Shown: piece by piece, positions 1 through 64,000 of the stretch | Position numbering within the stretch: the stretch's first letter is position 1 | Layout: each line of letters starts with the position of its first letter | Source: a virus | Lineage: Duplodnaviria; Caudoviricetes | DNA length: 64,000 nucleotides | IMG/VR virus record: IMGVR_UViG_3300034122_000625 | Location: 1,191 to 65,190 of that record | Reading direction: 5' to 3' (one strand) | Position numbers and translations under genes: made by a program | The notes under the pieces: generated by a model | What the model saw: the letters and a program-made list of their open reading frames with translations, nothing else | The model's database searches: none | What the model was told of the DNA's origin: nothing

Positions 1-228
1 CTAATCATCGTTTGTACCGATGAGACCTATGTGTCCGTCTACTTCCTTGGCTTCAGCGTAACTGATGCACTGAAACTTACCTCCGCGTTTGAACTTGTCT
101 GTGTCCTTGCCAAGTACAACAATGTGGGGTTCTTCGCATCCCTCGACGTATGCAAGGTAGATTCGTTTCCACCACAGCATACTGCTGGGTTCACGCACCA
201 GCACTTCCTGTCCTCTTTGAAATTCCAT
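1..228 (-). CDS. hypothetical early protein, 75 aa
   Basis: ORF track; ATG start, lies in the minus-strand small-gene array. Confidence 0.6.
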   Translation of the reverse strand: MEFQRGQEVLVREPSSMLWWKRIYLAYVEGCEEPHIVVLGKDTDKFKRGGKFQCISYAEAKEVDGHIGLIGTNDD

Positions 229-229
229 G

Positions 230-508
230 TCAGATACTTTTGGTTTGGTAGATAGTTACATTCTGCGTCGGAGCATCCTCCATGATGAGGCGGCGAAGGG
301 ACTGCTTCACGAAGTCATTCATCTTCTGTGCCGCCAGTCTTGCATAGGTTGAACGTTGGGTGTACGTTCCGGTTGTCTGAGGAGATGGGAGATACAGGTC
401 AAACCCGTACTCTCGCCTCTCATCCCTTGCTGCTACAATAACCATGTCCATACCATCCATGATGGACTGATAGATGAACTCTTCTTGATTGGGCATTACG
501 AACTTCAT
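230..508 (-). CDS. hypothetical early protein, 92 aa
   Basis: ATG lies 22 nt downstream of the CGTT box of repeat copy 1. Confidence 0.7.
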   Translation of the reverse strand: MKFVMPNQEEFIYQSIMDGMDMVIVAARDERREYGFDLYLPSPQTTGTYTQRSTYARLAAQKMNDFVKQSLRRLIMEDAPTQNVTIYQTKSI

Positions 509-556
509 GTCTGTTGTTGTTTGATAGATTAACGTCTGATGACTTCTGATTATTGC

Positions 557-745
557 CTACTGAGGTGAATTTTCTGGGCCATACTTGATGACAAACCCAT
601 ATTCAAGGTAGTCGTTCTCGCCATGCTCGCCCCATGACTCGTAGTAATGGCCATCGGCAGTGATGATAGTGACGCTGTCCCCACTGACTTCCACCCGCTT
701 GGTGGTGGTATCGAACTTGTGCTGGTCTACGATTTGAAAGTACAT
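557..745 (-). CDS. hypothetical early protein, 62 aa
   Basis: ORF track; its TAG stop abuts repeat copy 1. Confidence 0.65.
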   Translation of the reverse strand: MYFQIVDQHKFDTTTKRVEVSGDSVTIITADGHYYESWGEHGENDYLEYGFVIKYGPENSPQ

Positions 746-751
746 GGCTAA

Positions 752-1033
752 TTAGTTTTGTTGTGAGCAGTCGGGTGAGATATCGAGGATTTTGTTAGGG
801 CTGAAGGTCTCTTGAATCTGTACGTGTGAGCAGACGATGCCGAATGGGAAGTAACCTTGTGATTCGTGCCCGTATGGCAAGGTCTCATAATAGTTTCCAC
901 TGGTGTTTGAGAGTTCAAGCCAGATGGTCTTGTCATGGTCAATCTTTTGGTTGCAACGTTCGCAACGATGGGCTGATGGACTTGCGTCCTGCTTGCTCAA
1001 CTCGATGAGTTGATGCTGAATTTCGTAGTTCAT
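752..1033 (-). CDS. hypothetical early protein with possible Zn-binding cysteines (CERC...GIVC)
   Basis: Start re-called at MNYEIQ, which gives an ATGA overlap with the upstream gene. Confidence 0.6.
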   Translation of the reverse strand: MNYEIQHQLIELSKQDASPSAHRCERCNQKIDHDKTIWLELSNTSGNYYETLPYGHESQGYFPFGIVCSHVQIQETFSPNKILDISPDCSQQN

Positions 1034-1257
1034 TTCAGTAAGTTCTTGTTTTTTACATAGCATCCCCATGACTTTGCTACAGGATTCCCATTGATGGTCT
1101 TCTCATAGATGGCGACGATATCCCCATCGGCAAGGTCTGAGATGTTGTAGTATCCTCCACCACCAAAGATGCTGTGGTTGTAACCACTGACTTGCTGTCC
1201 GCTTGCAAGCATTTCGTTGACTTGCTTCTTGCTCTTGGCTTCTACATAGATTTTCAT
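1030..1257 (-). CDS. hypothetical early protein, 75 aa (MKIYVEAKSKK...)
   Basis: Start re-called at the ATG following repeat copy 2. Confidence 0.7.
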   Translation of the reverse strand: MKIYVEAKSKKQVNEMLASGQQVSGYNHSIFGGGGYYNISDLADGDIVAIYEKTINGNPVAKSWGCYVKNKNLLK

Positions 1258-1297
1258 GGCTCTGTTGTTTGATGTTATAACGTTGATTGATGTCCTA

Positions 1298-1573
1298 TTA
1301 TTGTGCATCCTCTCTCTTTGCTGCAATTTCCTTCCAAATCTTATCCTCTGTGTCTCGAAGAGCATTCAATGTGAACTTGAATGGTTGCACATCGATGACA
1401 TACCCCTTCCTGTTGGTGACCACCAATGTGGTCTTCCATACTTCGTACTTGGTTCCGTCTACGTTCAATACCCAATTCCTGCTACCTTCCGTGTCAAGCG
1501 TGAAGGATACTTGTCTGCGGGTTGCTCGCTTTGAATCAACAAAGTTGAACGGCTTCTGCTGTGTGCTGTACAT
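1298..1573 (-). CDS. hypothetical early protein, 91 aa, ends EDAQ
   Basis: Starts after repeat copy 3; stop lies inside copy 2. Confidence 0.7.
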   Translation of the reverse strand: MYSTQQKPFNFVDSKRATRRQVSFTLDTEGSRNWVLNVDGTKYEVWKTTLVVTNRKGYVIDVQPFKFTLNALRDTEDKIWKEIAAKREDAQ

Positions 1574-1613
1574 GATGCTGTTGTTTGATTGTTTAACGTT
1601 GCTTGATGACTGC

Positions 1614-1808
1614 TTATTGTACTCGCTTCAAAATTTTTCCTTCGTAATTCAGGTAACCTTTCTCAATAAGCATTGTTGCTGTCCTGCCGTAGTGACCTTG
1701 CAGTGACCAAACCAAACCGGAACGAATTAGTCCCGAGAATAGTTCCAATACGTCATTCGCATCTCCTTCGCCTGACTCGTAGGCAATGATTTTGCTTGTC
1801 AATTCCAT
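1614..1808 (-). CDS. small phage protein with WxLQGxYGR motif, 64 aa
   Basis: Start re-called at MELTSK after repeat copy 4; WSLQGHYGRTA resembles a recurring small phage protein family. Confidence 0.7.
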   Translation of the reverse strand: MELTSKIIAYESGEGDANDVLELFSGLIRSGLVWSLQGHYGRTATMLIEKGYLNYEGKILKRVQ

Positions 1809-1848
1809 TGTTCTGTTGTTTGATTGTTTAACGTTGCTTGATGACTGC

Positions 1849-2007
1849 TTATTGTGCGTCTTCGATAAAAACTTCATCACATACCCACTTCTTTGTTCGC
1901 GCCATGTAGGCAATGAAGTTGTCCATGTGCTTCTCGTCGGTGAAGGTCTTGTTCTTGATGCAGACCTTGCGCCCATCGAAGTTCCAGAATTCAATTGTTG
2001 CTCTCAT
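1849..2007 (-). CDS. hypothetical early protein, 52 aa (MRATIEFWNF...FIEDAQ), not in ORF track
   Basis: Hand translation; TAATG coupling upstream, stop inside repeat copy 4. Confidence 0.65.
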   Translation of the reverse strand: MRATIEFWNFDGRKVCIKNKTFTDEKHMDNFIAYMARTKKWVCDEVFIEDAQ

Positions 2008-2267
2008 TAGTTTGCGATGCTTTGGGTGTACAACTGCTCGACATACACATCTCCGTACTCATTGACTGCGACATAACCACCTAATGCAAACCCAATCTCG
2101 TCCATCACTTCGTGCATTTCCTCTGCGTAGTCATCTGATGTTGCATCCAAATCCATCGCGATGATGAATTGATGGAATGTACACAGGATGATGTAGTCGG
2201 TCTGTGCCAGCATCCCTGCAATCGTCTTCACTCGGAAGACCTTGTTGAATCTCTCAATTGTATTCAT
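2007..2267 (-). CDS. hypothetical early protein, 86 aa
   Basis: Starts after repeat copy 5. Confidence 0.65.
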   Translation of the reverse strand: MNTIERFNKVFRVKTIAGMLAQTDYIILCTFHQFIIAMDLDATSDDYAEEMHEVMDEIGFALGGYVAVNEYGDVYVEQLYTQSIAN

Positions 2268-2362
2268 AACTCTGTTGTTTTGTGTTTAACGTCGGTTGGT
2301 TTGTGCTCATTGCGTAGAATGTTTCATGGGCGAATGTTTTTTAGTTTGTTTAACAATCTCAT

Positions 2363-2842
2363 TTACTTAAGGTAGATGCATTCCTGCATCCGGCAGTCAT
2401 AGATGGCTCGCTGCTTGTTCGCAAGGCCCAGCAGGATGGCGGATTCTCGGTCAGGAACGTTCACGCTGACATCTGCAACGACCTTCCCTTTCTCAATCCA
2501 CAATCCAATGTACAGATTCACTTCGGTGTGCCAATAAACCTTTATGATATTTGAATGCATCTCTGCCATCAGACCTTCAACATCGCTCTTCATGTCAGTG
2601 AGTGAGATGAACTTGCTGCTCTCTTGCAATTTCACTCCTGCGTAGTTACCCTTCAGGCTGACCATGTACCCATCTTTGGCCGATGACTCCAAGTATTTCA
2701 AATCGCTTGGGATGTCCGGAGCCAATTCTTTCTTTACATACTTCCAAAGTGGGTCAAAGGCTACCTTCACGCTCGCTCCATTGTAATCCTTCAGTGACTG
2801 CAATGCGTAGTCAACTGCTTCACTCCAATTCATGTTGTTCAT
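2363..2842 (-). CDS. early protein, putative SAM-lyase-like fold
   Basis: GYMVS...IGLW...VADVS...AILLG..NKQRAIYD pattern; ORF is secure, function is inferred. Confidence 0.5.
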   Translation of the reverse strand: MNNMNWSEAVDYALQSLKDYNGASVKVAFDPLWKYVKKELAPDIPSDLKYLESSAKDGYMVSLKGNYAGVKLQESSKFISLTDMKSDVEGLMAEMHSNIIKVYWHTEVNLYIGLWIEKGKVVADVSVNVPDRESAILLGLANKQRAIYDCRMQECIYLK

Positions 2843-2882
2843 GGCTATGTTGTTTGATGTTATAACGTCGGTTGCTGTTCAG

Positions 2883-3107
2883 TTATTGTGCGAATTTGAA
2901 TGCGATGAGATGTTTTAATGCTGAATCTTTGTCCGCATGGATGCTTGTGTGCAGATGGTCTAAGTCATCGTCGTAGATGTTCAACGCGAAGTCAACGTCT
3001 TGGTCTACGATATCGACGATGTATGGCGTTCCATCCTTTGTCGTTACATCGAACAAAATACACCCTGCAATTTGTGCAACTGGTTGAATGCTTGCCGTCT
3101 GATTCAT
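2883..3107 (-). CDS. hypothetical early protein, 74 aa, ends FAQ
   Basis: Start re-called at MNQTAS after repeat copy 7. Confidence 0.65.
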   Translation of the reverse strand: MNQTASIQPVAQIAGCILFDVTTKDGTPYIVDIVDQDVDFALNIYDDDLDHLHTSIHADKDSALKHLIAFKFAQ

Positions 3108-3147
3108 GTTTCTGCTGTTTGATTGTTTAACGTCGGTACTTGCTCTG

Positions 3148-3357
3148 TTATTGTGCATCCTCCCATTCTATGGTGATATTTTTTGTGGGCCTATAGGGAT
3201 AATTTCCTCCCCGATTAGACATCTCCACCATCTCCATTAGTTCGCTGCCGTTGCGAAGATGCAGATAGCCACATGAATAGCGGACAAAGGATGCTGCTGT
3301 GCCGGCGCAATCGAATGTGCCTACGACTCCTGCTGTGGTGCTGACGATGAATTTCAT
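3148..3357 (-). CDS. hypothetical early protein, 69 aa, ends EDAQ
   Basis: Start re-called at MKFIVS after repeat copy 8. Confidence 0.65.
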   Translation of the reverse strand: MKFIVSTTAGVVGTFDCAGTAASFVRYSCGYLHLRNGSELMEMVEMSNRGGNYPYRPTKNITIEWEDAQ

Positions 3358-3397
3358 GATGCTGTTGTTTGATACTATAACGCTGTGCTGTTTCCTG

Positions 3398-3550
3398 TTA
3401 TTGTGCGTCCTTGAAAATATTTTCAATCTCTTTCCGCTGTGCATCCTGATGCGCGGAGATGAAGTGAACTACAACGTATGCGATGGCGATGGTGATGACT
3501 GCTCCTTGGATGCCGAGGATGATGGTGCGGATGAATTCTTTGTTGTTCAT
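3398..3550 (-). CDS. small single-pass membrane protein, 50 aa (MNNKEFIRTIILG...FKDAQ), not in ORF track
   Basis: Hand translation; lies between repeat copies 9 and 8; hydrophobic N-terminal half. Confidence 0.65.
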   Translation of the reverse strand: MNNKEFIRTIILGIQGAVITIAIAYVVVHFISAHQDAQRKEIENIFKDAQ

Positions 3551-3590
3551 GACTCTGTTGTTTGATTGTTTAACGTCGGGTTGTTTCGGT

Positions 3591-3806
3591 TTAGTATGCG
3601 AAGTCGTTGGTCAGGTAGTCAAGTGCCCATCTTTTGTTGTCAAATGGGTAGTGATGGACCGTATCGTCGTTGGCATCGTACACCACTAAACCCCACCACT
3701 TTCCGCATTCCGAATGTTCGAGTTTCGCTGTGAAGGTTGAGCCCCCACATTGGACGATGTACTTGTAGTAGCCGGGGTGCTTGTAAGTGCAGGTGACCTT
3801 GTTCAT
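3591..3806 (-). CDS. hypothetical early protein, 71 aa
   Basis: Start re-called at MNKVTC after an A-rich leader; stop inside repeat copy 9. Confidence 0.65.
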   Translation of the reverse strand: MNKVTCTYKHPGYYKYIVQCGGSTFTAKLEHSECGKWWGLVVYDANDDTVHHYPFDNKRWALDYLTNDFAY

Positions 3807-3862
3807 CTTGTTTTTTGTTTGTGTTTCTATTTGACCCGGTGCTGTGTGCCCCGTTCCTGCAC

Positions 3863-3993
3863 CTATAACGCCATTGCTCATCCTTATTGTATGTCCACAT
3901 GGGAATTAACATCCGTTAACATATGGCCATCCCCAATCAGACATGGCACCCGCGCGTAACGCGCGCGAACGCAGCACGAGGAATATTATTGTG
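3863..3993 (-). promoter_or_regulatory. two variant copies of the early bipartite motif heading the array
   Basis: TACAATAA-N13-CGTTATAG at 3863-3891 and CACAATAA-N14-CGTTC at 3967-3993. Confidence 0.55.
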
Positions 3994-4098
3994 TCTGGGG
4001 AGATTTTTTTTTCTGAGGGTGAAAATGGGGGGGAGACCATCCGAACGTATTGCAATACAAAGGTTTACAATTAACAACACAATATGCATACATCCACT

Positions 4099-4208
4099 TT
4101 CGCAATCCCATGCGAATGACGTGTGGTGGTGGGGTTCACTTTCGCATACGCATTGCGAAGGATGGAGATGCGGATGGCACTATGACATTCGCACCCCCAT
4201 TGCGAATG
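4099..4208. repeat. three palindromic TTCGCA-N6/7-TGCGAA boxes
   Basis: 4099-4116, 4141-4159, 4188-4206. Confidence 0.8.
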
Positions 4209-4346
4209 ATGATAGTGCATGGCCCCCCGGCCCTGCCCAATCGCTGAATGTTGTGGCCAAATCGCCCTGCCTCAGACCCCACGGGGTTCGCCAAGTCCGT
4301 TCCGGATGCGTGTCGGGTACGTCCGTGATTATATACAATCCCCAAC

Positions 4347-4390
4347 CTCTCTATAACTCCACTCTCTATAACTCCACTCTCTATAACTCC
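4347..4390. repeat. 15-bp tandem repeat CTCTCTATAACTCCA x3
   Basis: Read directly; third copy lacks the final A. Confidence 0.9.
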
Positions 4391-4742
4391 CCCCTTTGCG
4401 TTGCGGGAGACTGTTTTTTGTCTCTGGCAAGTATTTTGCGTCCCAAAATTTGTTAATTCGCCCATAAGTTACGGTCAGTATGAGTTAATCTGTTGATTTG
4501 CAGGGGTAAGATTTTTACAGAAGCACTTGACTTTTGACGAAAAAAGTTGTAACTTCGCCATGCTACTGAGCAAGACAGCACCTTAGCTTCGGGGCTTACC
4601 TACGGGCCCCTTTCGCGGTGCTACTCAGATGGGAGTAGAAGCGATGGTAACTCAGTTGTGAAGTGGGCGTAGTGTACCCAAAAAAAAGCATAGTTACGGG
4701 GAAGGGTTACTGGGGTAAAGGGAGGGGGTGATGAATCTGTTG

Positions 4743-4750
4743 TATATTTG
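4743..4750 (+). promoter_or_regulatory. Bacteroidota primary-sigma -7 promoter box TAnnTTTG (first of many)
   Basis: Same box just upstream of plus-strand starts at 8390, 13015, 17179, 21791, 25912, 26138, 32916 and 40048; minus-strand copy at 8260-8267. Confidence 0.75.
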
Positions 4751-4766
4751 CCCATACCTCCTACAG

Positions 4767-4904
4767 ATGATTATCAAGAGCAAGGGTCAGTGGCAGGTGC
4801 GGTCGAGGGCTGGGAAGCTCTTGGGCACCCACGAGAGTCGAGAGAAGGCCTCCCGACAGCTGGCTGCTATAGAGGCATCGAAAGCAAGGAGGGGAGAGAA
4901 GTAA
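4767..4904 (+). CDS. small basic phage protein, 45 aa (MIIKSKGQWQVRS...LGTHESREKASRQLAAIE)
   Basis: Hand translation; follows the promoter at 4743. Confidence 0.65.
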   Translation: MIIKSKGQWQVRSRAGKLLGTHESREKASRQLAAIEASKARRGEK

Positions 4905-4905
4905 C

Positions 4906-5103
4906 ATGAAAGCAGTAAGACAACAGACTGACCCACCAAAGTCAAAGAAGAAGAGGTACAGCGACGATGATTTGATTCTGTTCGCTACAAGGGCACCGCG
5001 CAAGCCATCTGAGTACGGACCTATAATTCGTGGGAAGTTGAATGACAATAAACTGTTGGTGGCTGACTATGAGGCCTACCTGAAGTCAAAGGGCAAGCAA
5101 TAA
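4906..5103 (+). CDS. hypothetical basic protein, 65 aa
   Basis: ORF track; coupled to neighbours. Confidence 0.6.
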   Translation: MKAVRQQTDPPKSKKKRYSDDDLILFATRAPRKPSEYGPIIRGKLNDNKLLVADYEAYLKSKGKQ

Positions 5104-5549
5104 TGGCTGTACTCACAACAACGATTACGGAGGACGTATTCATCAATGGGGCTCAGAGAGGCTCCACGAGTATACTGACGGTTACTGGGGTGAACGAGGT
5201 GCTGCACAGGCTCATCAGTGTACCTCTGAGTGGATTGGGGTATACGACACTCATGACTACAGATACGCTTGGGGGTGGGTCCACGGTTATCCCCGCCAGC
5301 TTCAAGTACCTGAGGGTCACCAACTCCTCTTCAGACGACGTAACAGCCTCCCTGTACCTGAAGGTTCAGACGGCTAATAGCGAGGCTGTCTTTACGTTGG
5401 ATAACGGTGAGTCCTTTGTACTGACGAATAAGGATGTGTACGCAGGGACAGGGGTGGACCAAGCCTTCAGTTTTGCCAACCTCAAGTCCATAAAAGCAGG
5501 GGCTACAGGGGCTGCCTGCCTGACAGAAGTATTTTTAGCAACAGCATAA
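5103..5549 (+). CDS. putative virion decoration/structural beta-sandwich protein
   Basis: Thr/Ser/Gly-rich; KYLRVTN motif; resembles the proteins at 26160 and 26561. Confidence 0.55.
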   Translation: MAVLTTTITEDVFINGAQRGSTSILTVTGVNEVLHRLISVPLSGLGYTTLMTTDTLGGGSTVIPASFKYLRVTNSSSDDVTASLYLKVQTANSEAVFTLDNGESFVLTNKDVYAGTGVDQAFSFANLKSIKAGATGAACLTEVFLATA

Positions 5550-6645: not shown

Positions 6646-7146
6646 TTAGTGCCACCCGACGCGGTACTTGCCGCTGAGCTCGTTTTTCGTTGTGGGGCTG
6701 TACACTTTCTGAGAAGTACCCATAAGGTTGGCGGTAGCAAACAGGTAGACCGTTTTTCCATCCGAAAAGCAGAACTTGTTCAAGTTGGCCATTTGGTATG
6801 CGAGGAGCTTGCCTGTGAACTTGTTACGCAACTCGAAATGGTAGATGCCAAGCCCGTCCAACAAGAAGACTCCGTAGAAGGTGCCATCTGACGGTGCAGC
6901 CACATGACGCAATGAGTCCTTAGATGCTTGGATGAAGGCGTCGTCGATACCGCACCGCACAGCTCTCTCTTCAAAAGACTTCCAGTCATATCGACCGTTG
7001 TCCACCCACACTTCCCATACAAGCGAGTCGTTGTATACGGACGAGTGCCAAGGGTTGTGAGGCAGGTTTACACAGATTTCAAATTTCATCTGAGCTTGAA
7101 CGTGGGTTGCTGAGATGAGGGAGACGGCTACAAGGAACTTCTTCAT
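6646..7146 (-). CDS. exported protein with Sec signal peptide; antisense moron-like gene
   Basis: MKKFLVAVSLISATHVQA-Q signal; has its own copy of the early motif at 7147-7193. Confidence 0.7.
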   Translation of the reverse strand: MKKFLVAVSLISATHVQAQMKFEICVNLPHNPWHSSVYNDSLVWEVWVDNGRYDWKSFEERAVRCGIDDAFIQASKDSLRHVAAPSDGTFYGVFLLDGLGIYHFELRNKFTGKLLAYQMANLNKFCFSDGKTVYLFATANLMGTSQKVYSPTTKNELSGKYRVGWH

Positions 7147-7193
7147 GTGTGTGGTGTTTGACTCTATAACGCAGAATTTCGTAAATTATTGTG
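7147..7193 (-). promoter_or_regulatory. dispersed copy of early bipartite motif
   Basis: CACAATAA-N14-CGTTATAGAGTCAAACACC; 21 nt from CGTT to ATG. Confidence 0.75.
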
Positions 7194-7229
7194 TGTGTAT
7201 GCTATTTTAGTCGAAAATTTTTTTCATCC

Positions 7230-21811: not shown

Positions 21812-24637
<2,826 letters not shown>

Positions 24638-41009: not shown

Positions 41010-42422
41010 ATGGCTGAATATCAAGGTTATATAGCTCCACTGGCTCAATCCCAGAGCTACTCTGATGCTCTTCAGGCTCGTATGGATGTCATACGACAGC
41101 AACAAATGCAGAATATGCAACTGTTGCTTGACGCTCAGAACAAGCGGGATGCTATGACGACTCAACAGCTTGAGAAGCTGTACAGCCTGCGTACCAATGG
41201 TTGGGGGGAGAAACCTATAGAGGCTTTTGCAGCACAGAGAGATAAGTTTGCTGAAAAACTAAAGACCAATCAGTATACTGACCAAGCATCGTTCTTGGCT
41301 GACTTAAGCAAACTTGCTGACACCCATGCTGCGTACTCGTCTCATTACGAGACCACAAATCCTGTAATAAGACAGACTCAGCAATACGTGGCTCAGCCGG
41401 GTTTATACCCAGACAAAACCATGAAGGTTACTGAGAATGTAGAGACACTTACTCAAAAGATGGGGCTACAGAGGAATCTCGGTATAAGTAGTTTTAGTGT
41501 TTCTGACGACGGAAGTATTCAGTATTTAGGTGCAGATAACAGACCGTTAGACATATCTGCCGCTATGAATCCTGCTACATATCTACCAAAGGTGGAACCA
41601 GTGTTTGTCCATCCAATGCAACTATCTAATGAATTTACAACCCTTTACCAAAAGGCATTAGAGAACGGAAAAACTGGTAACGCATTCATTGCAGATGTGC
41701 TCCCGAGTCTTACGACTAAAGTCATCGAAGACCCATCGTTATCGTCTTCAGCTCGAACATACTATGTGAGTGTTAATGGAACAGACACTATTCCATCAGA
41801 CGAAAAATCAGAAGGCGAAACCGATGAGCATTACTACGCCAGACACTATGCTGAGGCAGGGTTGGCTACATTTAGGAATACCAAAAAAACGTATGCCCCC
41901 ACGAGTGGCGGAGGCAGGACAAGTGCAACAACTGCCTCAACAAAACAACCGGCTATAATGGATGTAGGGGTGAGAAAAGGGGAGGGTCCTTCAAGGAGCT
42001 ATACAAATTTAGGTGCATTGGGGGGCTACGGCGGTAAACCAAACGAACAGTATTATCAATATAGTTTTCCGAGTGTTGTGTCCAAAGTGAACTTAGCTTC
42101 CTTCCTTGCTCCAGAAGCAAAAGCGGAGATAGGTGATGATTTGAGTTTTGACATTAAGACTTTACGCTTTACTGAGAACGGATATATGGTTCTTCCGAAT
42201 GTAAGTATAGGAGCTAAGCAAGTTGGCGACGTATACATAGGAGCAGACAGTCATGTTTATAGTGAAATAAGCGCCGCATTGAAAAAGGAATACGGTTACG
42301 ACATAACCCAATGGACTAACGGAAGTGTATACAGCGTTATACAAGGGCAAGCCTCTGGTGTTCCTCAAACCACTCAACCGGGTGCAGGTACAGTTATAAA
42401 ATTCAACGCAATTGTACAATGA
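41010..42422 (+). CDS. putative ejection (cargo) protein
   Basis: Position between cargo genes; helical N-terminus. Confidence 0.55.
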   Translation: MAEYQGYIAPLAQSQSYSDALQARMDVIRQQQMQNMQLLLDAQNKRDAMTTQQLEKLYSLRTNGWGEKPIEAFAAQRDKFAEKLKTNQYTDQASFLADLSKLADTHAAYSSHYETTNPVIRQTQQYVAQPGLYPDKTMKVTENVETLTQKMGLQRNLGISSFSVSDDGSIQYLGADNRPLDISAAMNPATYLPKVEPVFVHPMQLSNEFTTLYQKALENGKTGNAFIADVLPSLTTKVIEDPSLSSSARTYYVSVNGTDTIPSDEKSEGETDEHYYARHYAEAGLATFRNTKKTYAPTSGGGRTSATTASTKQPAIMDVGVRKGEGPSRSYTNLGALGGYGGKPNEQYYQYSFPSVVSKVNLASFLAPEAKAEIGDDLSFDIKTLRFTENGYMVLPNVSIGAKQVGDVYIGADSHVYSEISAALKKEYGYDITQWTNGSVYSVIQGQASGVPQTTQPGAGTVIKFNAIVQ

Positions 42423-45400
42423 ACGAAAATTATCAACAGCTATACGGATACCTGTCCCAAAATGGGTTGACAGACCTTAGTTCCGATGAGTTTTATAATT
42501 CGTACTCGTCCAATAAAGCGAATTTCAATCAACTATACGCATATCTGGCGGAGAACAAGATGACAGACTTGGGGGCGGACGACTTCTACGCCGCATACTT
42601 CGAGCCCCCTGCTGGTGCGAAAAAAAAAAGTCAATCTTCTCCGTCATATACTCCACCTTCGAGAGGGTACTTGCCGGGTGATGAGCTCGTTCGTCAGATA
42701 GCAGAGGCTCCTTCTGAGCCTGTATACCCTAACGTTCGTAGGGCTCAAGTGGTTCGTCAGATGCTTGAGAACACCACCCTGCTTGACGTAGACCAAAATG
42801 TGCTTCAGTCTTATGGACTTGACGAGTCTGACTGGAGAACGGCACAGGTGGCTTACGCCCTTGATAACACAGAGCAAGACGTTCAGGTAGCCTCTCAGGC
42901 TATTCAAGACAGGAGTTATGAGCAGGCTTTGGCTGAGGCCAAGTTGAAGGCTCAGGAGGCGTTTATCCCTCAGTTGCTGAAGAATACGTTCCCTAACTCG
43001 CCGAATCTGTTCCGCGCTGCCGAGTGGTTGTTTGAGCCGCAATATGGGCCAATGGGGAATGCTACGGCAGACTTCATGCTCGAACTTGTAGACTCTTCTG
43101 TTAGAGCCGTAGCTGGAGGATTAACCACCAACGATGCAGCAACGGAGGCTTTTAATGTGTTTGCTGAGAAGGGTGTTGGCCTGTCCAGAGAGTCTACAGA
43201 CAGACTCTACAATGCTGTAACGGCGGCTCAGGGCTTTCAGGAGCGCTATGGACAGTCTGAGAGTATGTTGGAGTGGAGCGCTGAAATAGAGGAGGCTAAG
43301 AGGAATGGGGACAGCGAGCTGCTTGCAGCCCTGTTTGCTACAGCTAAGAACCCTATGGTTCTCCCTGAGATTATGGTGAACTCATACGCCAGTGTATTTA
43401 ACAAGGCCTCTATCGCTGCTGCGGCTACTACTACAGGTGGATTTATAGCCGGTGGTGCCGGTGCCGGTGCTGTTGGAGGGCCTGCGGGTGCAGCTGGGGG
43501 TGCCTTGGTGGGTGCAGCTTCAAGTGTGCCTTGGGCTATGGGTGCAGCCTTTACGGCTCTTGAGGTGGGTATGACATTCCCTGAACTTGTCAGGGCTGAG
43601 ATGGAGGAGCGCGGTATGGAGTTCAACAAGGAGAACTTCTACGCTGCACTGAATAACGACGAGATATATAACTCCGCTTTGGCTCGCTCTGCTGCTCGTG
43701 GTACAGCTATCGGTGTGGTGAGTGCTCTCGGCGCAAGAGCGGCGACACAGGTGTCTAAGAACCTCGCCAATAGAGGTATGAGCTCTGTAGGCAGAACGTT
43801 CTCTGTTGCACCTATAGAGATGGGGGCTGGTTTCAGTGGTGAGGTATTGGGTCAGGCGGCTGGTGGGCAGGAGATAGACCTTGCAGAAGCTACTATGGAG
43901 GGGCTTGCTGAGATAGGCATGGCCCCAGTTGCTGTAGCTGGTGCATACGCTGAGGACTTGGCGGCTAAGAAGCCGAAGTACAAGGTCGGCACGAATACCG
44001 TTGGTAGAGAGGAGATAGAGCGTGTGGTTACGGCAGCAACTCCTGAGGAGTTGAAGCAGATGTCGCTGACGGTAGAGAATGATAGTGAAATGGAAGCTCT
44101 TATCGACGATAAGATGTTCCGCTCAGAGATTGCTGACAGAGTTCCAGAGACGCTTGGCTCTGAGGACAGAAGACGCATCATCAACCTTGAGGCAGAGAAG
44201 AGACAGATTCAGAACAGAAAGACTGACTCCTTCACGGGCACTGAGGGTGCTATGGCTATAGCTGGCAAGGAGCGTGTTGCTCAGATAGACGAGGAGATTT
44301 ATGGCATCATGAATCCAGCCCCAGAGCCTCTGCAACCTATTACTCTGGACATTGAGCCCATCGCAACGCCTGAGATAGTCACCGAGCCTGCCCCCACATT
44401 AGAGCCTGTCTTTGTGGCCGACTTGGTCAATAGACCTGTTACACTTACCTCTCACAACGGAACACTGCTTGAGACTCCTGTGCAGGGTGACCTGTATGTA
44501 GATGGACAGACTGTAGTTGTTGAATCGGCAGACAGGATATACGAGATTGGCAATGTGTCTGAACTTAATGAGCAGGACTCAAGGGCCTTGGGTATAGAGC
44601 CTCAGGTGGAGACTGTTGTCGTTCAGGCTGATGAGTCTCTGGTCATCGAGAATGAAGAGTTCTTGATTCAGAGAGACCTCCCCACGATGGGTATAGACTA
44701 CGATGCCGATGGTAACGTCACAAGGGTTAGCCTTGAGAGTAAGAAAGACGGCTCGAAGAAAATGTTCTCTGGTCAAACGGCTATCGACGCAGCATATCAG
44801 ATACTTTTGTCCAAAGCCGAGTCACCAGAACAGATTGACCGTATAGACAAGATACTTGAACAAGATGAAGAATACAAAAGACTCCACGACGAGTACGTCG
44901 CCAAAAAGCTCGCAGAGCGGGATGAAAAACCTCGAGAAGCTGCGGCAGCTCCCCAAGCAAGACCAGATACGGATACTGGCGCGAGTGCTAAGCCAAGCGA
45001 ATCAAAACCAGTAGCCAAGCCTGAACCTAAGAAAACCCCTCCACTTAAAGAGAAGGAGGCGCCTCAGCCTAAGCCTGCCAACAAAGTTGTAGACAGATTG
45101 ACCCGTCTGTTGTCTATAGAGACAGACCCAGTTCGTATGTCCAGCCTTGTGGCTCAGTTGGAGCAGGCGGCAGCTATGGGTGTCGTGTTGCCTGAGAAAT
45201 CCGCCAAGGAGTTGAGAGAGGCAAAAGAACAGCTTGAGGCAGGTGGTTATGTCTCTGAGACGCCACAGGTAGGTTCTGACTATGACCCCAATACCACGGA
45301 TGAGGTTGTCATGGTTACGTCAACTGAACTGCCAGCAGGTCAGAAGAAGGTTGTATCTGTCACTCGTCCCAGAGTTACGCAAAACGGACGGGTGAAGCAG

Positions 45401-48400
45401 TCTGCCAAGTTGGTGGTTGCTGTAGGCACAGCCGACCCTACTGCGCTTTCTACAGGCAGGGCGCGTGGAGAGCTTGAAACCCTCAGCAATCCTCGAAACA
45501 CAAAACAGCTTCAGTCTACATACGAGAAACTGTGGGGTATGACCCCAGAGAAAGCAAAGGCGGCAGCAGCCATATCTGACAAGATGATTGGTACTATGGC
45601 CGCAAGGCACGGTATCAGCAAGAAGGATATGTACGCTCGCATTAAGTGGGTGAAGTCTAAGAGTGTGGATGCAAACGGCAACTCTGTCCCGGATACTGAC
45701 GGACCGGTAGTAAGGTTTCAGGCCAGAATAGAGGACAGTAAGCGAGGTATAACTATGCAGTTCTTTGCCGGTGGCCCCGAATTAGAGCAACGGAAGCAAG
45801 ATGGCAACCTTGATGACAATGCGCCACTATCTACTATATACGACAAAACTGGTGTCCTTTTTCATACCCCTGATAAGGCGGGTGGGTTTATTATATCTAA
45901 GGACGGAAAAAATATTGTAGAGGGACAGGGTGGTATGTACTTCCCTCTTCTCCCGGGTTTCTTTGAAAACAGATACTTCTGGGCTTCCACAGAAGGCGCG
46001 GCTAATGGAATGGCTGATTCCCTTAATCGGGCCGCTCAGATGTCTAAGGACGGAAAGGTTAGGATGGTGCTGGTGAGCACAAACTTAAACAAGTTGTCTG
46101 GGGGTTCTGGTATAAACCAAGGGTTGGTGCGTATGCTTCAATCTTTTATGGAAGATAAGAAGTTTCCGCTTCTCCAGTCGGACGTGAAGTCCATTTTGAT
46201 TGCAGCAAACGCAGCCCTTGGAAGGCCTCCAGCAGGAAAACCGGATGGCCCCAGAGCTGTTTTGAATGCTGACGTAAAAGGAAGCATGAATGTAAAGCAG
46301 ATAATTGATGTAATCTTAGATAAACTGTCTCCAGAAAGTAGTTCTTTTCCAGACAGATGGGCGTTTTTTGAAGGTGTTGCTATGGGTTTAAGCAAAGTTG
46401 CCTCAGAAGACCCTAAAAAAAAGAAGGCCATTGTGGAGCTGTTGAACACCATCTCAGGTCTTGAGGAGTGGGGCCCAAAGAAAAATCCAAAGAAGAAGCT
46501 GTTTAAGAAAGACGTTCTGGTGGCCCTTCACTCAGCGTTTTCTGAACCTGTCTTAAGAGTAGTAGGCGACTCGTTGGATACAGACAAGAAACTGGGGACA
46601 AACAATGAAAGGGTGTATGCTGTTATAGAGGCCGATGTAAATCCAGATGACCCAGCAAACACCTTCGAAGCTATATCACCAAAATACGAGGGTCTTCCAG
46701 AGCACGCATCATATCCTCGCGTAATAAGGCTTGTCAATCAAGACGCCAGAACTACCGTTCGCATTCTTAACGAAAGGGCTCCTTGGTATAACTTAGCCAT
46801 AAATCCAGCTACAGGCAGGACGCCTGAGGAAAACGAAAGGCTGAAGATATTCCCGTTTGGATTCACAAATAATCCGCTGTCTACTACATCCATATCGGAA
46901 GACCCGACGGATGTAAATCTGATTCCTCTGACGTCCTCTGCAATTGATACTAAGGCTGTTACAAAAAATACAAAGGCAGAGGTTGACAGAATAAAGGGGT
47001 TGCCTGAGAATGAAGAGGATGGGGCTACGTTTAATAATGACGGAACTAAGCTGGAGTTGGCTCAGGGCGCTATTGTGCCTGTTGCATCATTTAACACTAC
47101 GCAGGAGGAACTTACTCCTGAGATGATTTCTGAGTTCTTAGATTCTATGAGAGGTGTGTTTTCTACTCAGACCGTAAGGTTTGGGTTGTACAAGTTCCCT
47201 GACTCCACCAAGGTTTCCATAGACATAAACATTGTAGTTGACGAAAACAACAGAGACGAGGCTATAAAGTTTGCCAGATACGCTGGTCAAAAGTCTGTGT
47301 TTTTTATGTCAGACTTCAGTACGGCTGAAACCGGGGCAAGCGGAAAAAACCCCAAGACCTTTAGCATAGAACAGTACGCCGAGATTGCTCGCAGGCTTGA
47401 AGACGGCACAATAGACACGTTTATTCAGGGCAACAACCCGTACTCGCTTCCAGAAGAAATTTCAGATGTTCTTACAGATGACGGCAATGGCAATTACGTC
47501 TTTAGGCACTACTCAGAGGAAAGGCGAGATGTCATCAAGCCCGGCTCCGGACAAAACATTAGGACTTCGAGAGATGAGGCATCTGCAATAGGTTCTGTTG
47601 GCGGGCTGGCAATGTACTACGTTGACGATTCAAGAGACGTGGGTGGCAATGTGCCTCATATAGTAAAAGTCCCTAAGGATAAGGTTTACTACTACAATGA
47701 AGACGCCTTAGACTTTTTTTCTGAAGCAAAAAAGAGGTATAGCGAAAGGACTGGGCTTAGGAATTTCTTGAATTACAATCAAGAGCTCGCTTGGATTACA
47801 AAGGTTGCTAATGAGAGAGGCTTTGAGATGGTAATCAGTGAGTGGAGTGTTGGTAATGCCAAGCTAAGGGCTCAGACCACCATGACTCTTGAGCCTATCG
47901 AGGGCGACTTTGAAATGAACTCCAACAAGAGGACGCCGCCAAACATCGTAAAGGGCGACAACATATTGATAGATGGCTACAGATACGTTGTCGTCAATTC
48001 ACAAATCATTAACGGTCGGCGTGAGATAGAGTACACCAACACCAGTCTAAGTAACACACAGAAACAGTTTGTGGACCTGATGGTTGATGGAAATGGGAAT
48101 CCCAACGTCACCCGCAATAGATTTACCTACGAAGTCATAGACGCCAACGGCAATGTCGTTCGTCAAAACAAGGGTCAAGTTTACTTCCAAGACCAACGCG
48201 CTGCTATTGTTATGAGCGGCACAGAGGCTGTTATTCACGCTATCTCCAACCCAGACGTAACTTCCCCTCTCCACGAACTTGCTCACCTGTATGAGCAGGT
48301 ATTGACTGACGAGGAGAGACAACAGATTCTCGATTGGACAGGGCAAGAGCAATGGAATGGTGATACGTCAGAAGCTTTTGCCGAAGGATTCGAGAAGTTC

Positions 48401-59605: not shown

Positions 59606-60383
59606 ATTCGATGTAGTCTTTGCGTGGGTCTTCCCCGTTTTGTAAAAAGTCTGTGATTCTCTTGATGGCCCCCCGGAACTTCATCTCGCCACGGAATAGG
59701 GTCTCCTCTGAGCAGGTTACCACGGCGGGAAGATACGGGAAGGTTTTCTCCTGTGCAACCCAGTAGAACTTATTGATACCCTCTGACTGCGTGTATAGGT
59801 AAGCCTGAACATCGTAGCAGAGTCCGTTTACGTCATACCGGAATCCGGAGACGCTGCGTGTAGACTTGCTATCCATGATGAAGTCTTCGCCTCGGCAGTC
59901 GATGAAACCCTTGACGAGCACACCTTCAATCTCCTTGTACACTGGCTTCTGATACTCACCACTGAAATACTTCTCGATGATGCCTGCCTCTGACAGCCGC
60001 TCCACCATCTTGTTAGCCATATCCCAGTCCTCTGGGTTGCATACAATCTCACCGCGCTCGGTCATCTCAGATATGATGGCTGCCTTCACCTCCTTGAACT
60101 CGTTGGTCATCGACGGCGACTTCGCCTCCTGAGTCTTCAAGGAGCATCGTTCCAAGATGTAACCATTGTCCAAGATGCGATAGGTAGTCATGGCCTTCTT
60201 GCGGTCAAAGAGGAGCATATCGTACATCGTGCCGAAGTCTAAGGCATCGGACTTGTACTCGATGTCTCCGCGCATATACGCATCGAACTTAGCCATGTCA
60301 TCCATAGCCTGCTTGATGCTGGAGTAGGAGAGGTGCGGCTTACCATACCGCTCCTCAAGGGCTTTTGATAGGTTGAATTTCAT
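59595..60383 (-). CDS. RecE-like/DUF3799 PD-(D/E)XK exonuclease
   Basis: LSYSSIK...FGT...KG.ID...D.K.T...Y..QAY.Y. Confidence 0.85.
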   Translation of the reverse strand: MKFNLSKALEERYGKPHLSYSSIKQAMDDMAKFDAYMRGDIEYKSDALDFGTMYDMLLFDRKKAMTTYRILDNGYILERCSLKTQEAKSPSMTNEFKEVKAAIISEMTERGEIVCNPEDWDMANKMVERLSEAGIIEKYFSGEYQKPVYKEIEGVLVKGFIDCRGEDFIMDSKSTRSVSGFRYDVNGLCYDVQAYLYTQSEGINKFYWVAQEKTFPYLPAVVTCSEETLFRGEMKFRGAIKRITDFLQNGEDPRKDYIEYEV

Positions 60384-61023: not shown

Positions 61024-61057
61024 CTCTATAACGCAAGACCCTCGAAATTATTGTGCC
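61024..61057 (-). promoter_or_regulatory. dispersed copy of early bipartite motif upstream of erf
   Basis: GCACAATAA-N14-CGTTATAG; the TAA is the stop of the MazG-like gene (ends DEAQ). Confidence 0.75.
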
Positions 61058-61398
61058 TCGTCCTTAACAAAAACTCCATTCACTGTTTTCCCGGTTCGCC
61101 CACTGATTTCGTTGTAGGCTATCGCCAAGCATTCTTCAGGGTCTAACCCCAACTGATTCGCAAGGATGATGATTGTCACCAGCACGTCACCTATAGCGTC
61201 CTTTAACTCTCTCCTTGGGGCAATCTGTCGCTCGCTCTTGAGCACCTCTCTTGCCAATTCGCCAACCTCCTCGACAACCTTTATCATCTGCTTGGGGGCT
61301 GCACTTCTTACAAGGATGCCCTTCTCGCCTGCCCAGCGGACAACGTTGAGTTCAAGTTGCCCCCACTGCAAGTCTTCATTCAAAATCGTCTTATCCAT
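61048..61398 (-). CDS. MazG-like NTP pyrophosphohydrolase
   Basis: K..EEVGELA...DAIGDV.VT...AYNEI..R.G...NG.FVK. Confidence 0.88.
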   Translation of the reverse strand: MDKTILNEDLQWGQLELNVVRWAGEKGILVRSAAPKQMIKVVEEVGELAREVLKSERQIAPRRELKDAIGDVLVTIIILANQLGLDPEECLAIAYNEISGRTGKTVNGVFVKDEAQ

Positions 61399-63888: not shown

Positions 63889-64000
63889 TGTTTAACTTGA
63901 TTTATTGATTTAACTTGTAAATTCTTGGGTTGACTCTGTGTCACAGAGTGGGGGCAATTTTCCCTGTTTCGTGTCACAAAGTCGGGGTTAATACGCTTTT

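What the first reader, a model, noticed from the sequence alone, without database searches (positions are those of the whole stretch)
230..3993. Fixed-geometry gene-cassette array: one repeat serves as upstream stop codon, promoter-like box and downstream leader
Seen: on the minus strand nine copies of (GAYG)CACAATAA-N15-CGTTAWA..ATCAAACAACAG-N3-4-ATG separate unrelated small ORFs. In seven copies (stops at 1298, 1614, 1849, 2883, 3148, 3398, 3591) the TAA of the left box is the in-frame stop of the upstream gene, and the next ATG follows after exactly 40 nt. Unrelated proteins therefore end EDAQ, KRVQ, EDAQ, KFAQ, EDAQ, KDAQ and DFAY. The spacer sequence varies but its length does not. Inference: these are interchangeable expression cassettes that are gained, lost and shuffled by recombination in the repeat, possibly via the phage ERF/exonuclease pair. 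This is conceptually like T4-family promoter-early stem-loops or integron cassettes, but with a different geometry and no integrase in the window.
Basis: partly seen in the sequence, partly recalled or inferred. Interest (0 to 1): 0.85.

Follow-up and report, generated by a model that had tools for sequence, protein, structure and literature searches.

The report
Promoter-like repeats flank swappable phage gene cassettes
A lake-water phage carries a row of small unknown genes, each preceded by the same rigid 55-base control module, and related phages show whole genes gained, lost and swapped at these modules, much as in T4-type phages but with a different motif.

Summary
Nine copies of GCACAATAA-N15-CGTTAWA-ATCAAAC-leader-ATG lie on the minus strand at 506-3599: 8 matches against 0.8 expected by chance, none on the plus strand. 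In seven copies the box TAA is the in-frame stop and the next ATG follows after exactly 40 nt.

The window is nearly all of a 65-kb podophage genome from lake metagenomes. Its host is probably a Bacteroidota: 1 of 29 genes has a Shine-Dalgarno sequence, and plus-strand genes carry TAnnTTTG boxes.

The same module occurs in 13 other viral or metagenome contigs: 69 copies on the gene strand, 0 on the opposite strand, spacer 15 nt in 47 of 59 distinct copies.

Near-identical relatives (92-99% nt) differ by whole-cassette indels whose chimeric junctions lie inside the repeat. Single cassettes are 85-90% identical between backbones that are only 69% identical, and gene order differs.

The concept is already known as T4-type PeSLs, so this is a new variant: no stem-loop, and neither a sigma-70 nor a Bacteroidetes sigma-A consensus. 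The stop-in-box feature is incidental (17 of 60 copies overall). Promoter function, and any role for ERF and the exonuclease, are untested.

The parts
3548..3599 (-). Repeat copy 1. Degenerate box 1 (GCATACTAA), N15, CGTTAAA, ATCAAACAACAG, ATG at 3550-3548. The TAA at 3591-3593 stops the upstream 71/96-aa gene.
   Evidence: E 7.9e-9, not in the training set
3355..3409 (-). Repeat copy 2. Box 1 GCACAATAA; the TAA at 3398 stops the 50-aa gene (tail KDAQ). ATG at 3357.
3105..3159 (-). Repeat copy 3. The TAA at 3148 stops the 69-aa MKFIV gene (tail EDAQ). ATG at 3107.
   Evidence: A contig of run X18 leaves the reference at 3155.
2840..2894 (-). Repeat copy 4. The TAA at 2883 stops the 74-aa gene (tail KFAQ). 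ATG at 2842.
2265..2316 (-). Repeat copy 5, degenerate (CGCAATGAG in place of box 1). The upstream 159-aa gene stops 53 nt earlier. ATG at 2267.
   Evidence: 1 mismatch; E 1.2e-4. Its 3' flank resembles the flank after the 84-aa and 150-aa genes of L042/L046.
1806..1860 (-). Repeat copy 6. The TAA at 1849 stops the 52-aa gene (tail EDAQ). ATG at 1805-1803 by the 40-nt rule.
   Evidence: Its spacer is identical to that of copy 7.
1571..1625 (-). Repeat copy 7. Box 1 GTACAATAA; the TAA at 1614 stops the 63-aa DUF7417 gene (tail KRVQ). ATG at 1573.
1255..1309 (-). Repeat copy 8. The TAA at 1298 stops the 91-aa gene (tail EDAQ). ATG at 1257.
   Evidence: Homology to L050 (85%) begins at this box 1.
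506..561 (-). Repeat copy 9. Box 1 GGCAATAA; the upstream gene stops at a TAG 4 nt before the box. ATG at 508.
1..3881 (-). Fourteen small early ORFs: 3591-3806/3881, 3398-3550, 3148-3357, 2883-3107, 2363-2842, 2007-2267, 1849-2007, 1614-1805, 1298-1573, 1030-1257, 752-1033, 557-745, 230-508 and 1-228. Of the 12 scanned, one (1614-1805) passes a curated family cut-off.
   Evidence: Pfam and PHROGs scans covered 12 of the 14 ORFs (557-745 and 1-228 were not scanned). Hits were DUF7417/phrog_3908 for 1614-1805, weak phrog_17808 for 2363-2842, weak phrog_3744 for 230-508, and a sub-threshold DUF1554 hit for 1298-1573.
3864..3993 (-). Head of the array: a partial copy (CACAATAA-N14-CGTTC at 3966-3993) and a spacer-13 copy (3864-3891) ahead of the first gene.
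7144..7196 (-). Isolated copy (spacer 14) before the lone minus-strand gene 6646-7146 (166 aa, signal-peptide-like start), which sits among plus-strand genes.
   Evidence: E 2e-5
61027..61056 (-). Box 1 - N14 - box 2 copy before the ERF gene (60380-60991). The box TAA stops the MazG-like gene 61048-61398 (tail DEAQ).

Best explanation
The region 1-3993, which continues past the left end of the window, is the hyperplastic early-gene region of a freshwater podophage that probably infects a Bacteroidota.

Most small ORFan genes there carry their own copy of a rigid module of about 55 nt. It consists of box 1 (G)CACAATAA, 15 nt of free sequence, box 2 (A)CGTTA(A/T)A, ATCAAAC, and an unstructured A/C-rich leader without a Shine-Dalgarno sequence. 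The ATG lies 20-22 nt after CGTTA.

Inferred: the module is a phage-class promoter plus a short leader, and it gives each gene its own 5' end. It is not the host sigma-A type. What reads it is unknown: a host alternative sigma, a phage factor, or a virion enzyme.

Shown by comparison: the modules are direct repeats, and recombination between copies deletes, inserts and exchanges whole gene-plus-module cassettes within and between related phages. The recombination is homologous or uses 5-31 nt of shared sequence. Crossovers fall in box 1 and the spacer, in box 2, and in the leader.

The stop-codon overlap arises because box 1 contains TAA and genes in this genome are packed against it. The recurring (E/K)DAQ tails are the translated, locally homogenised extension GARGAYGCACAATAA of box 1.
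For: 1. The motif is real, strand-specific and tied to gene starts.
- In the genome, 10 copies lie on the reverse strand and 0 on the forward strand, with reversed-pattern controls at 0 and 0.
- Across 14 sources (151,620 nt), 69 copies lie on the gene strand and 0 on the opposite strand.
- The spacer is 15 nt in 47 of 59 distinct copies, 14 nt in 11 and 13 nt in 1. The ATG lies 20-22 nt after CGTTA in 39 of the 47 spacer-15 copies.
- Boxes and spacing are kept across lineages whose leaders differ...CAACAG...CCCACAGG...CACACACA.
- Copies also precede ERF and a lone minus-strand gene.

2. The motif is not the host promoter type.
- Plus-strand genes carry TAtaTTTGc boxes at 4743, 8390, 13015, 17179, 21791, 25912, 26138 and 32916. 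These match the Bacteroidetes -7 consensus TANNTTTG (PMC6847099, passages read).
- The repeat keeps only the TA of that consensus.

3. Cassette flux in the L019 lineage (six contigs, 92-99% nt identity).
- A two-gene, 896-nt indel has a junction copy that is chimeric within AATAATCCCTCT.
- The MKFIV cassette is absent in L048, with the junction at CGTTA.
- The MKIYVE cassette is present in 4 contigs and absent in L019, with the junction between box 1 and the leader.
- A 31-aa ORF indel lies at a 10-nt leader repeat.
- L059 shows a third state at the same site.
- L055 and L053 differ by a 274-nt indel at the left edge of box 1.

4. Cassettes move between backbones.
- MKFIV is 86.3% nt identical (241 nt, from the ATG to the next box 2) between the window and L019, while the ERF-to-primase backbone is 68.6% identical over 4010 nt.
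- The F1 cassette is 89.9% identical between L054 and L044, bounded at +30 and +37 of two repeat copies, with different neighbours.
- L058 shares only the repeats and the upstream non-coding DNA with the window.
- The order of families F1, F2, F3, F5, F11 and F12 differs among arrays.

5. A contig of run X18 leaves the reference exactly at box 1 (3155) and rejoins at the leader (3353).

6. Tails are imposed by the box.
- The cores of 76 DUF7417 homologues mostly end in GKILK-like sequence followed by variable tails, and none has RVQ.
- MKIYVE homologues end ...LK whether or not a repeat follows. In L048, L056, L057 and L059 the sequence AAGACGCACAATAA is non-coding.
- MKFIV ends WEDAQ, WEPAQ or WESAQ.
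Against: - No transcript data exist, so promoter activity, start site and timing are unproven. Only one of the nine copies passes even a loose sigma-70 scan.
- No sigma-70 region 2 or region 4 domain and no T7-type polymerase domain is detectable in the genome. The T7-type polymerase search also found nothing in any of its 14 control genomes, so that blank is uninformative. The reader of the motif is unknown.
- Two of the roughly 13 structural differences examined are not at the repeat: a 335-nt insert flanked by a 118-nt duplication, and a 465-nt tandem duplication in L048.
- Alignments of unrelated cassettes necessarily end in the only shared sequence, and selection keeps only intergenic junctions. 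'Breakpoints in the motif' therefore partly follows from the architecture.
- The relatives are metagenome assemblies. The absent state of MKIYVE rests on one contig (L019).
- The more distant relatives elemoA, L023 and L034 have ERF and the exonuclease but no such repeat.
Confidence: 0.7

Rival explanations
1. The repeat is only a compact reiterated promoter. Cassette differences among relatives arise by ordinary illegitimate recombination and selection for intact genes, and the repeat plays no part in recombination.
For: Two structural differences lie outside the repeat. Alignment ends are expected to fall in the only shared sequence. Junctions at CGTTA share just 5-6 nt.
Against: Junction copies are clean chimeras of two parental repeat copies. 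The unit gained or lost is repeatedly one or two whole gene-plus-module units. Cassette boundaries recur at +26 to +45 of the module in independent comparisons.
Confidence: 0.08
2. The boxes are oriented binding sites for a phage regulator that gates read-through or silences the array, in the manner of mycobacteriophage 'stoperators' (recalled, not read here). They are not promoters; transcription starts upstream near 4000-4400.
For: - The sites are oriented, intergenic and often touch stop codons.
- The relative MW202828.1 has a perfect 16-bp palindrome, GTGTCGTTAACGACAC, at the equivalent place in 7 of the 24 upstream regions printed.
- Three TTCGCA-N7-TGCGAA palindromes lie upstream of the array.
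- L019-type arrays begin with a 100-aa gene whose sequence looks to me like a winged-helix protein. No domain search was run on it.
Against: - Two boxes at a fixed distance of two helical turns, plus a fixed distance to the ATG, fit a promoter better than an operator.
- Copies stand alone before an isolated gene among opposite-strand genes (7144-7196), where read-through control makes no sense.
- No integrase or lysogeny module is present.
Confidence: 0.12
3. The module acts at the RNA level, as a processing site or a translation-initiation enhancer for genes without a Shine-Dalgarno sequence, on one polycistronic early transcript.
For: - The A/C-rich unstructured leader fits Bacteroidetes initiation rules (PMC6847099, abstract and passages).
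- The stop-to-start distance is fixed.
- In the relative L023, two intergenic units before the same kind of leader score as sub-threshold hammerhead ribozymes. This suggests that a 5' end for each gene matters in this phage group.
Against: - No conserved RNA structure: z-scores run from -1.4 to +1.4 in 7 copies.
- No Rfam hit.
- Box 1 and box 2 are conserved, while the 15 nt between them and the 3' leader are free. This is the pattern of a DNA-recognition site.
Confidence: 0.07
4. This is an integron-like array in which the repeats are sites for a site-specific recombinase.
For: Cassette-wise gain and loss, with direct repeats at every boundary.
Against: No tyrosine or serine recombinase domain is found in the genome, although the control genomes respond. 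The repeats have no hairpin or imperfect inverted repeat. Crossover points vary (box 1/spacer, box 2, leader), unlike a fixed cleavage site. Each cassette has its own module rather than sharing one common promoter.
Confidence: 0.02

Closest known systems
PeSLs (promoter-early stem-loops) of T4-type myoviruses. Source: Arbiol et al. 2010, PMC2839356 (abstract and sections 13 and 16 read); Comeau et al. 2014, PMC4122927 (abstract read).
   Same: Both are repeated intergenic regulatory modules in hyperplastic early regions, placed just upstream of ORFan genes. Both begin at the stop codon of the upstream gene and end at the next start codon. In both, indels and replacements between close relatives are explained by recombination between flanking copies.
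   Different: - No stem-loop or terminator.
- The boxes are not sigma-70-like and not the host sigma-A type.
- No Shine-Dalgarno sequence.
- A rigid 15-nt spacer and a 40-nt stop-to-start distance.
- The stop codon lies inside the upstream box.
- The host phage is a podovirus-type phage related to Flavobacterium and Cellulophaga phages (TerL 40-46% aa), not a T4-like myovirus.
- Mini-circles were not tested.
Bacteroidetes primary-sigma promoters, -33 TTTG / -7 TANNTTTG. Source: PMC6847099 (passages read).
   Same: Two elements upstream of genes without a Shine-Dalgarno sequence. The TA of box 2 could correspond to T-12 and A-11.
   Different: T-8, T-7, T-6 and G-5 are nearly invariant in host promoters and are absent from the repeat. 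This genome does use TAtaTTTGc, but before plus-strand genes. The relatives L023 and L034 use it before their early genes.
Integron gene-cassette arrays (from general knowledge).
   Same: Arrays of unrelated small genes in one orientation, gained and lost as units bounded by repeats.
   Different: No integrase, no attC-like folded site, a module for each cassette instead of one common promoter, and variable crossover points.
ECF-sigma promoters (AAC in the -35 element, CGT in the -10 element, about 16-17 nt apart) and mycobacteriophage stoperators. Both are recalled from memory, not read here.
   Same: ACAAT-N17-CGTTA has the geometry and the CGT core of ECF-type promoters. Stoperators are oriented intergenic sites that often overlap stop codons.
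   Different: No ECF sigma or repressor was identified. The resemblance is a lead only.

Membership tests
T4-type PeSL | Early promoter matching the sigma-70 consensus | tested here: not met
   1 of 9 copies passes a loose sigma-70 scan. The region holds 4 sites against 7.1 expected.
T4-type PeSL | Stable stem-loop acting as terminator or attenuator within the module | tested here: not met
   Seven copies folded: -0.5 to -5.0 kcal/mol, z-scores -1.4 to +1.4. No terminator-like site lies between cassettes.
T4-type PeSL | Located in a hyperplastic region, immediately upstream of ORFans | tested here: met
   Of the 12 array proteins scanned, one passes a curated family cut-off (DUF7417); the rest have no hit or only weak or sub-threshold hits. 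Array content differs among relatives.
T4-type PeSL | Indels and replacements between close relatives, with junctions in the repeated module | tested here: met
   Chimeric junction copies P1, P3, P5 and P7; further cases. Two events lie elsewhere.
T4-type PeSL | Excised mini-circles carrying one chimeric module | not testable with these tools
   Only assembled contigs of the runs were served; no raw reads.
Bacteroidetes sigma-A promoter | -7 element TANNTTTG (T-12, A-11, T-8, T-7, T-6, G-5) | tested here: not met
   The box 2 consensus is CGTTAa.c.AtcAAAc. TAnnTTTG boxes lie elsewhere in the genome.
Integron cassette array | Tyrosine recombinase (IntI) next to the array | tested here: not met
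   PF00589 and PF00239: 0 matches in the 65-kb genome, while the control genomes respond.
Integron cassette array | attC sites that fold as imperfect hairpins | tested here: not met
   No structure above the shuffled controls.
N4-type hairpin early promoter read by a virion RNA polymerase | Short hairpin in the promoter DNA, and a giant virion polymerase | tested here: inconclusive
   The window's copies have no hairpin. The relative MW202828.1 has a 6-bp stem with a 4-nt loop. The 2945-aa protein has no PDB, Pfam-polymerase or Atlas match, and its fold was not predicted.

The most novel reading that the evidence does not exclude
The two-box module is the promoter of a transcription system not yet described in Bacteroidota podophages. 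It would be read by a virion-delivered or phage-encoded factor with no detectable similarity to sigma-70 or T7-type enzymes. The same module would double as the homology scaffold of an integrase-free cassette-exchange platform, shared by phage lineages that have diverged to about 69% nucleotide identity.
Probability: 0.3. Interest if true: 0.75.

Novelty: new variant of a known kind. Interest (0 to 1): 0.55.

Why it matters
Modular shuffling at repeated early regulatory modules has been shown for T4-type phages. In my text search for 'PeSLs' from 2014 on, the phage papers I recognised by title or abstract dealt mainly with T4-like or large myoviruses, cyanophage and haloarchaeal viruses. None of the 10 titles concerned Bacteroidota phages.

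Finding the same evolutionary device with an unrelated motif, in uncultured freshwater phages of a different morphotype and host phylum, suggests it is a general and convergent way for phages to keep a fast-turnover pool of accessory early genes.

The motif also marks a second promoter-like class in a phage whose other genes use the canonical Bacteroidetes -7 box. This gives a concrete sequence with which to look for the factor that reads it.

The arrays supply a ready list of exchangeable ORFans, which are candidate host-takeover or anti-defence genes.

Tried and rejected
Searches that found nothing useful:
- Nucleotide search of the array against 50,697 phage records: no match.
- Exact box 2 plus leader pattern in viral contigs: 6 single hits and no arrays, judged to be chance.
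- The 362-aa neighbour as an anchor: no relatives.
- Of 24 loci found through the exonuclease, only L019 had the motif more than once.
- Flavobacterium phage elemoA (34 kb examined): 0 copies on either strand.
- The 20-base pattern in 185,579 species genomes: 4 single hits and no arrays, so no host clue.

Searches for the enzyme that reads the motif:
- Pfam Sigma70_r2, Sigma70_r4_2 and RNA_pol: none in the genome. The RNA_pol search found nothing in any control genome, so it is uninformative.
- PDB sequence search with the 2945-aa and 1505-aa proteins: nothing.
- Pfam and PHROGs give only LPD38, families of unknown function, and one PHROG labelled virion structural protein for the 1505-aa protein.
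- ESM Atlas for residues 500-1300: no usable hit.
- A DxDxD motif at residue 760 of the giant protein is within chance expectation by my own estimate.
- The crAss-like phi14:2 preprint (10.1101/2020.03.07.982082, passages read) reports no common motif at its virion-polymerase early promoters, so it gives no model to compare. Its Supplementary file 1 could not be seen.

RNA-level searches:
- Rfam at gathering threshold on the window and on L019, L023, L034 and L044, and at E <= 1 on 3500-5200: only the 4 tRNAs.

Sequencing runs:
- No RNA holder was listed.
- Only Logan contigs were served, so deletions or circles in raw reads could not be sought.
- No indels were listed, and the joints were the one at 3155/3353 and a 2-nt skip at 1258 in X18. 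Stretches without cover mean nothing here.

Other:
- The integron reading was rejected.
- Supplements are closed. Figure S1 of PMC2839356 (the reporter assays) was not seen.

Full report
**What the window is.** The window is bases 1191-65190 of a 65,190-nt virus record that CheckV rates 100% complete. The two contig ends overlap imperfectly. Genome 1-255 matches 64783-65037 at 90%, and 552-668 matches 65074-65190 at 100%. The head copy carries an extra 80-aa gene. I read this as a circularly permuted genome assembled across two co-existing variants.
- Large terminase, portal, virion proteins, a collagen-like fibre, RNR and primase-helicase are recognisable.
- TerL is 40-46% identical to Flavobacterium (elemoA), Cellulophaga and uncultured podophages.
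- Twenty lake-water runs hold the array.
- Only 1 of 29 plus-strand genes has a Shine-Dalgarno-like sequence.
- Eight plus-strand intergenic sites carry TAtaTTTGc, the Bacteroidetes -7 box (PMC6847099, passages read).

A Bacteroidota host is therefore likely. The minus-strand block runs from about 4000 down through the contig ends to 56590. It holds the small-gene array, then a MazG-like gene, ERF, a PDDEXK exonuclease and primase-helicase.

**The observation.** It holds.
- Nine copies lie at 506-3599 on the minus strand.
- The search gives 8 matches at up to 1 mismatch, against 0.8 expected. A sequence profile gives 10 hits, all on the minus strand, and three of them were not used to build it.
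- In seven copies the box TAA is the in-frame stop and the next ATG follows after exactly 40 nt.
- All nine spacers are 15 nt. Their sequence is not fully free: two are identical and four end in CCGA.
- Further copies with 13-14-nt spacers precede the first array gene, ERF, a lone minus-strand gene at 6646-7146, and a gene left of the window.

**What the module looks like across phages.** A box1-N15-box2-ATCAAAC pattern found 3 further viral contigs. With the longer box 1 (CACAATAA) it found 13 metagenome contigs, of which 10 carry two or more copies by the looser regular expression.
- In 14 sources (151,620 nt) there are 69 copies on the gene strand and none on the other strand.
- Of 59 distinct copies, 47 have a 15-nt spacer, 11 have 14 nt and 1 has 13 nt.
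- The ATG lies 20-22 nt after CGTTA in 39 of the 47 spacer-15 copies.
- The consensus is gCACAATAA-N15-aCGTTAa.c.AtcAAAc.
- The spacer and the 3' half of the leader differ by lineage.
- The copies do not fold: z-scores run from -1.4 to +1.4.
- They do not match Rfam or the sigma-70 consensus.
- They lack T-8, T-7, T-6 and G-5 of the host -7 box.

Two conserved boxes about two helical turns apart, a fixed distance to the start codon, strict co-orientation with genes, and stand-alone copies before isolated genes all point to a promoter plus short leader. That is an inference, because no RNA data exist. No sigma-70-family domain is detectable; the T7-type polymerase search is uninformative because it found nothing in its control genomes either. 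The resemblance to ECF-type promoters (AAC...CGT) comes from my recall only.

**More distant relatives differ in an instructive way.**
- L023 and L034 (exonuclease 53-54% aa) have canonical TTTG...TAtcTTTG promoters before their early genes, followed by a conserved leader AATCAAAATCTCAAT.
- Two intergenic units in L023 score as sub-threshold hammerhead ribozymes.
- MW202828.1 has TAA-GTGTCGTTAACGACAC, a 16-bp palindrome, plus an A/C-rich leader in 7 of the 24 upstream regions printed.
- elemoA has no such repeat.

**Do cassettes move?** Yes. Six contigs of the L019 lineage are 92-99% identical where they align, yet they differ by whole units.
- P1: two genes (896 nt) are present in L046 and L057 and absent in L019. 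The L019 junction copy equals the left parent up to AATAATCCCTCT and the right parent from there on.
- L059 shows a third state at the same site.
- P3: L048 lacks MKFIV, with the junction at CGTTA.
- P5: the MKIYVE cassette is present in L048, L056, L057 and L059 and absent in L019. The junction lies between box 1 and the leader.
- P7: a 31-aa ORF comes and goes at a 10-nt repeat in the leader.
- L053 has a 274-nt unit that L055 lacks, at the left edge of box 1.
- Two differences are not at the repeat: a 335-nt insert with a 118-nt duplication, and a 465-nt tandem duplication.

Between lineages the picture is the same.
- The MKFIV cassette is 86.3% identical (241 nt, from the ATG through the next box 2) in the window and L019, although the ERF-to-primase backbone is 68.6% identical.
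- The F1 cassette is 89.9% identical in L054 and L044, from +30 of one module to +37 of the next, with different neighbours.
- Homology between the window and L050 (85%) starts at box 1.
- L058 shares only the repeats and upstream non-coding DNA with the window.
- Family order differs: F3-F1-F2 in the window, F1...F2-F3 in L019 and L044, F12 next to F1 or to F2, and F1 before F11 in L054 but after it in L044. Gene calls in that table are rough.
- One contig of run X18 departs from the window at 3155 (box 1) and rejoins at 3353 (leader).

No tyrosine or serine recombinase gene is found, and crossover points vary. I therefore infer homologous or short-homology recombination rather than site-specific recombination. 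ERF and the exonuclease are present, but their role is untested.

**The stop-codon feature.** Over all sources the box TAA is the stop in 17 of 60 distinct copies. The stop lies 1-25 nt upstream in 23, 26-120 nt upstream in 13, and inside the spacer or box 2 in 4. Three copies have no upstream ORF. The rate is 7 of 12 in this genome and 10 of 48 elsewhere, which is below the one-in-three expected for a random frame. Several results show that the tails come from the box.
- The cores of 76 DUF7417 homologues mostly end in GKILK-like sequence followed by variable tails, and none ends RVQ.
- The 52-aa family ends in box 1 in the window and in L044. In L019 the frame reads through box 1 and ends in box 2 (my reading of the sequence).
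- MKIYVE ends ...LK with or without a following repeat. In four contigs AAGACGCACAATAA is non-coding.
- MKFIV ends WEDAQ here but WEPAQ and WESAQ in relatives. This suggests local homogenisation of GARGAYGCACAATAA.

The geometry is thus a by-product of tight packing against a box that contains TAA.

**Comparison with the known.** The closest system is the PeSL of T4-type phages (PMC2839356, PMC4122927). PeSLs are repeated early promoter modules in hyperplastic regions that run from the upstream stop to the next start and mediate indels and swaps.
- Features met here: location, association with ORFans, and junctions in the repeat.
- Features not met: sigma-70 consensus, stem-loop terminator, and T4-like phage.

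I rate this a new variant of a known kind. Interest is moderate, because the principle is published. The open and more novel point is what reads a conserved non-sigma-A motif in a Bacteroidota phage.

**Limits.** The relatives are metagenome assemblies. Alignment ends tend to fall in shared sequence by construction.

Noticed in passing
G000:C1:1-668 and 64783-65190 (window 63593-64000, plus the head outside the window): The contig ends overlap imperfectly: 90% over 255 nt and 100% over 117 nt. An extra 80-aa gene sits in the head copy right after a shared ...AAGTTAAACAATGAC start. This probably reflects two population variants joined by the assembler, and it is another cassette-type indel that is not at the CACAATAA repeat.
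   Followed up: partly
window 4089-4206, minus strand: Three palindromes TTCGCA-N7-TGCGAA, 43-47 nt apart, lie in the divergent intergenic region upstream of the array. L058 has three as well, with the same arms and different centres. They may be an operator or an origin.
   Followed up: partly
window 4345-4391, minus strand: A tandem repeat GGAGTTATAGAGAGT, three copies, lies just upstream of a conserved non-coding block.
   Followed up: no
window 4278-4359, minus strand: A non-coding block is conserved at 75-80% in the window, L058 and L044 (GGGGATTnTATAtAAT...CGACCCCGTGGG). The three-sequence consensus fold is weak and there is no Rfam hit. It may be an early promoter or a small RNA.
   Followed up: partly
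window 4743, 8390, 13015, 17179, 21791, 25912, 26138, 32916, plus strand: TAtaTTTGc boxes, the Bacteroidetes sigma-A -7 consensus, lie in intergenic positions before plus-strand genes. The phage therefore has two distinct promoter-like classes, separated by strand.
   Followed up: partly
L023:2058-2105 and L023:2292-2341: Two hammerhead-like elements (CUGAUGAG...CGAAAC...GUC) lie between early genes of a 54%-identity relative, directly before the conserved leader. Rfam scores them at 22.2 and 21.3 bits, below the gathering score of 34 (E 0.008 and 0.016 in a 601-nt search).
   Followed up: partly
L016 (MW202828.1 43000-60850), 7 sites: The repeated motif TAA-yCGkGTGTCGTTAACGACAC, a perfect 16-bp palindrome, plus an A/C-rich leader precedes the early small genes of this relative. 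It shares the CGTTAAC core with the window's box 2.
   Followed up: partly
G000:C1:716-843, minus strand (outside the window): A tRNA-like gene is called by ARAGORN only when introns are allowed: tRNA-Tyr(GTA) with a 44-nt insert and a weak anticodon stem. It lies between the array and the next gene block.
   Followed up: partly
window 1590-1619 and 1825-1854: Two neighbouring repeat copies are 100% identical over 30 nt, spacer included. This suggests a recent duplication or gene conversion. Logan contigs of several runs break at these positions.
   Followed up: partly
window 42419-51256, plus strand: A 2945-aa ORF has only an LPD38 domain (residues 2633-2815) and PHROG matches of unknown function. 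The relative MW202828.1 has a 3859-aa counterpart. Whether it hides a polymerase was not resolved.
   Followed up: partly
L042:7330-7375 (equivalent region in L046/L057); L019:2712-2745: A G/C-rich hairpin (GGGGAGGGGAATCTGCTCCTCCCC) is followed, in the L042/L046/L057 copy, by an A-run rather than a T-run. It sits in the 3' flank of some cassettes and travels with them.
   Followed up: no
window 21812-24637, plus strand: A 941-aa tail-fibre-like protein is made largely of collagen-like 9-nt (Gly-X-Y) repeats. These dominate the direct-repeat families of the window.
   Followed up: no
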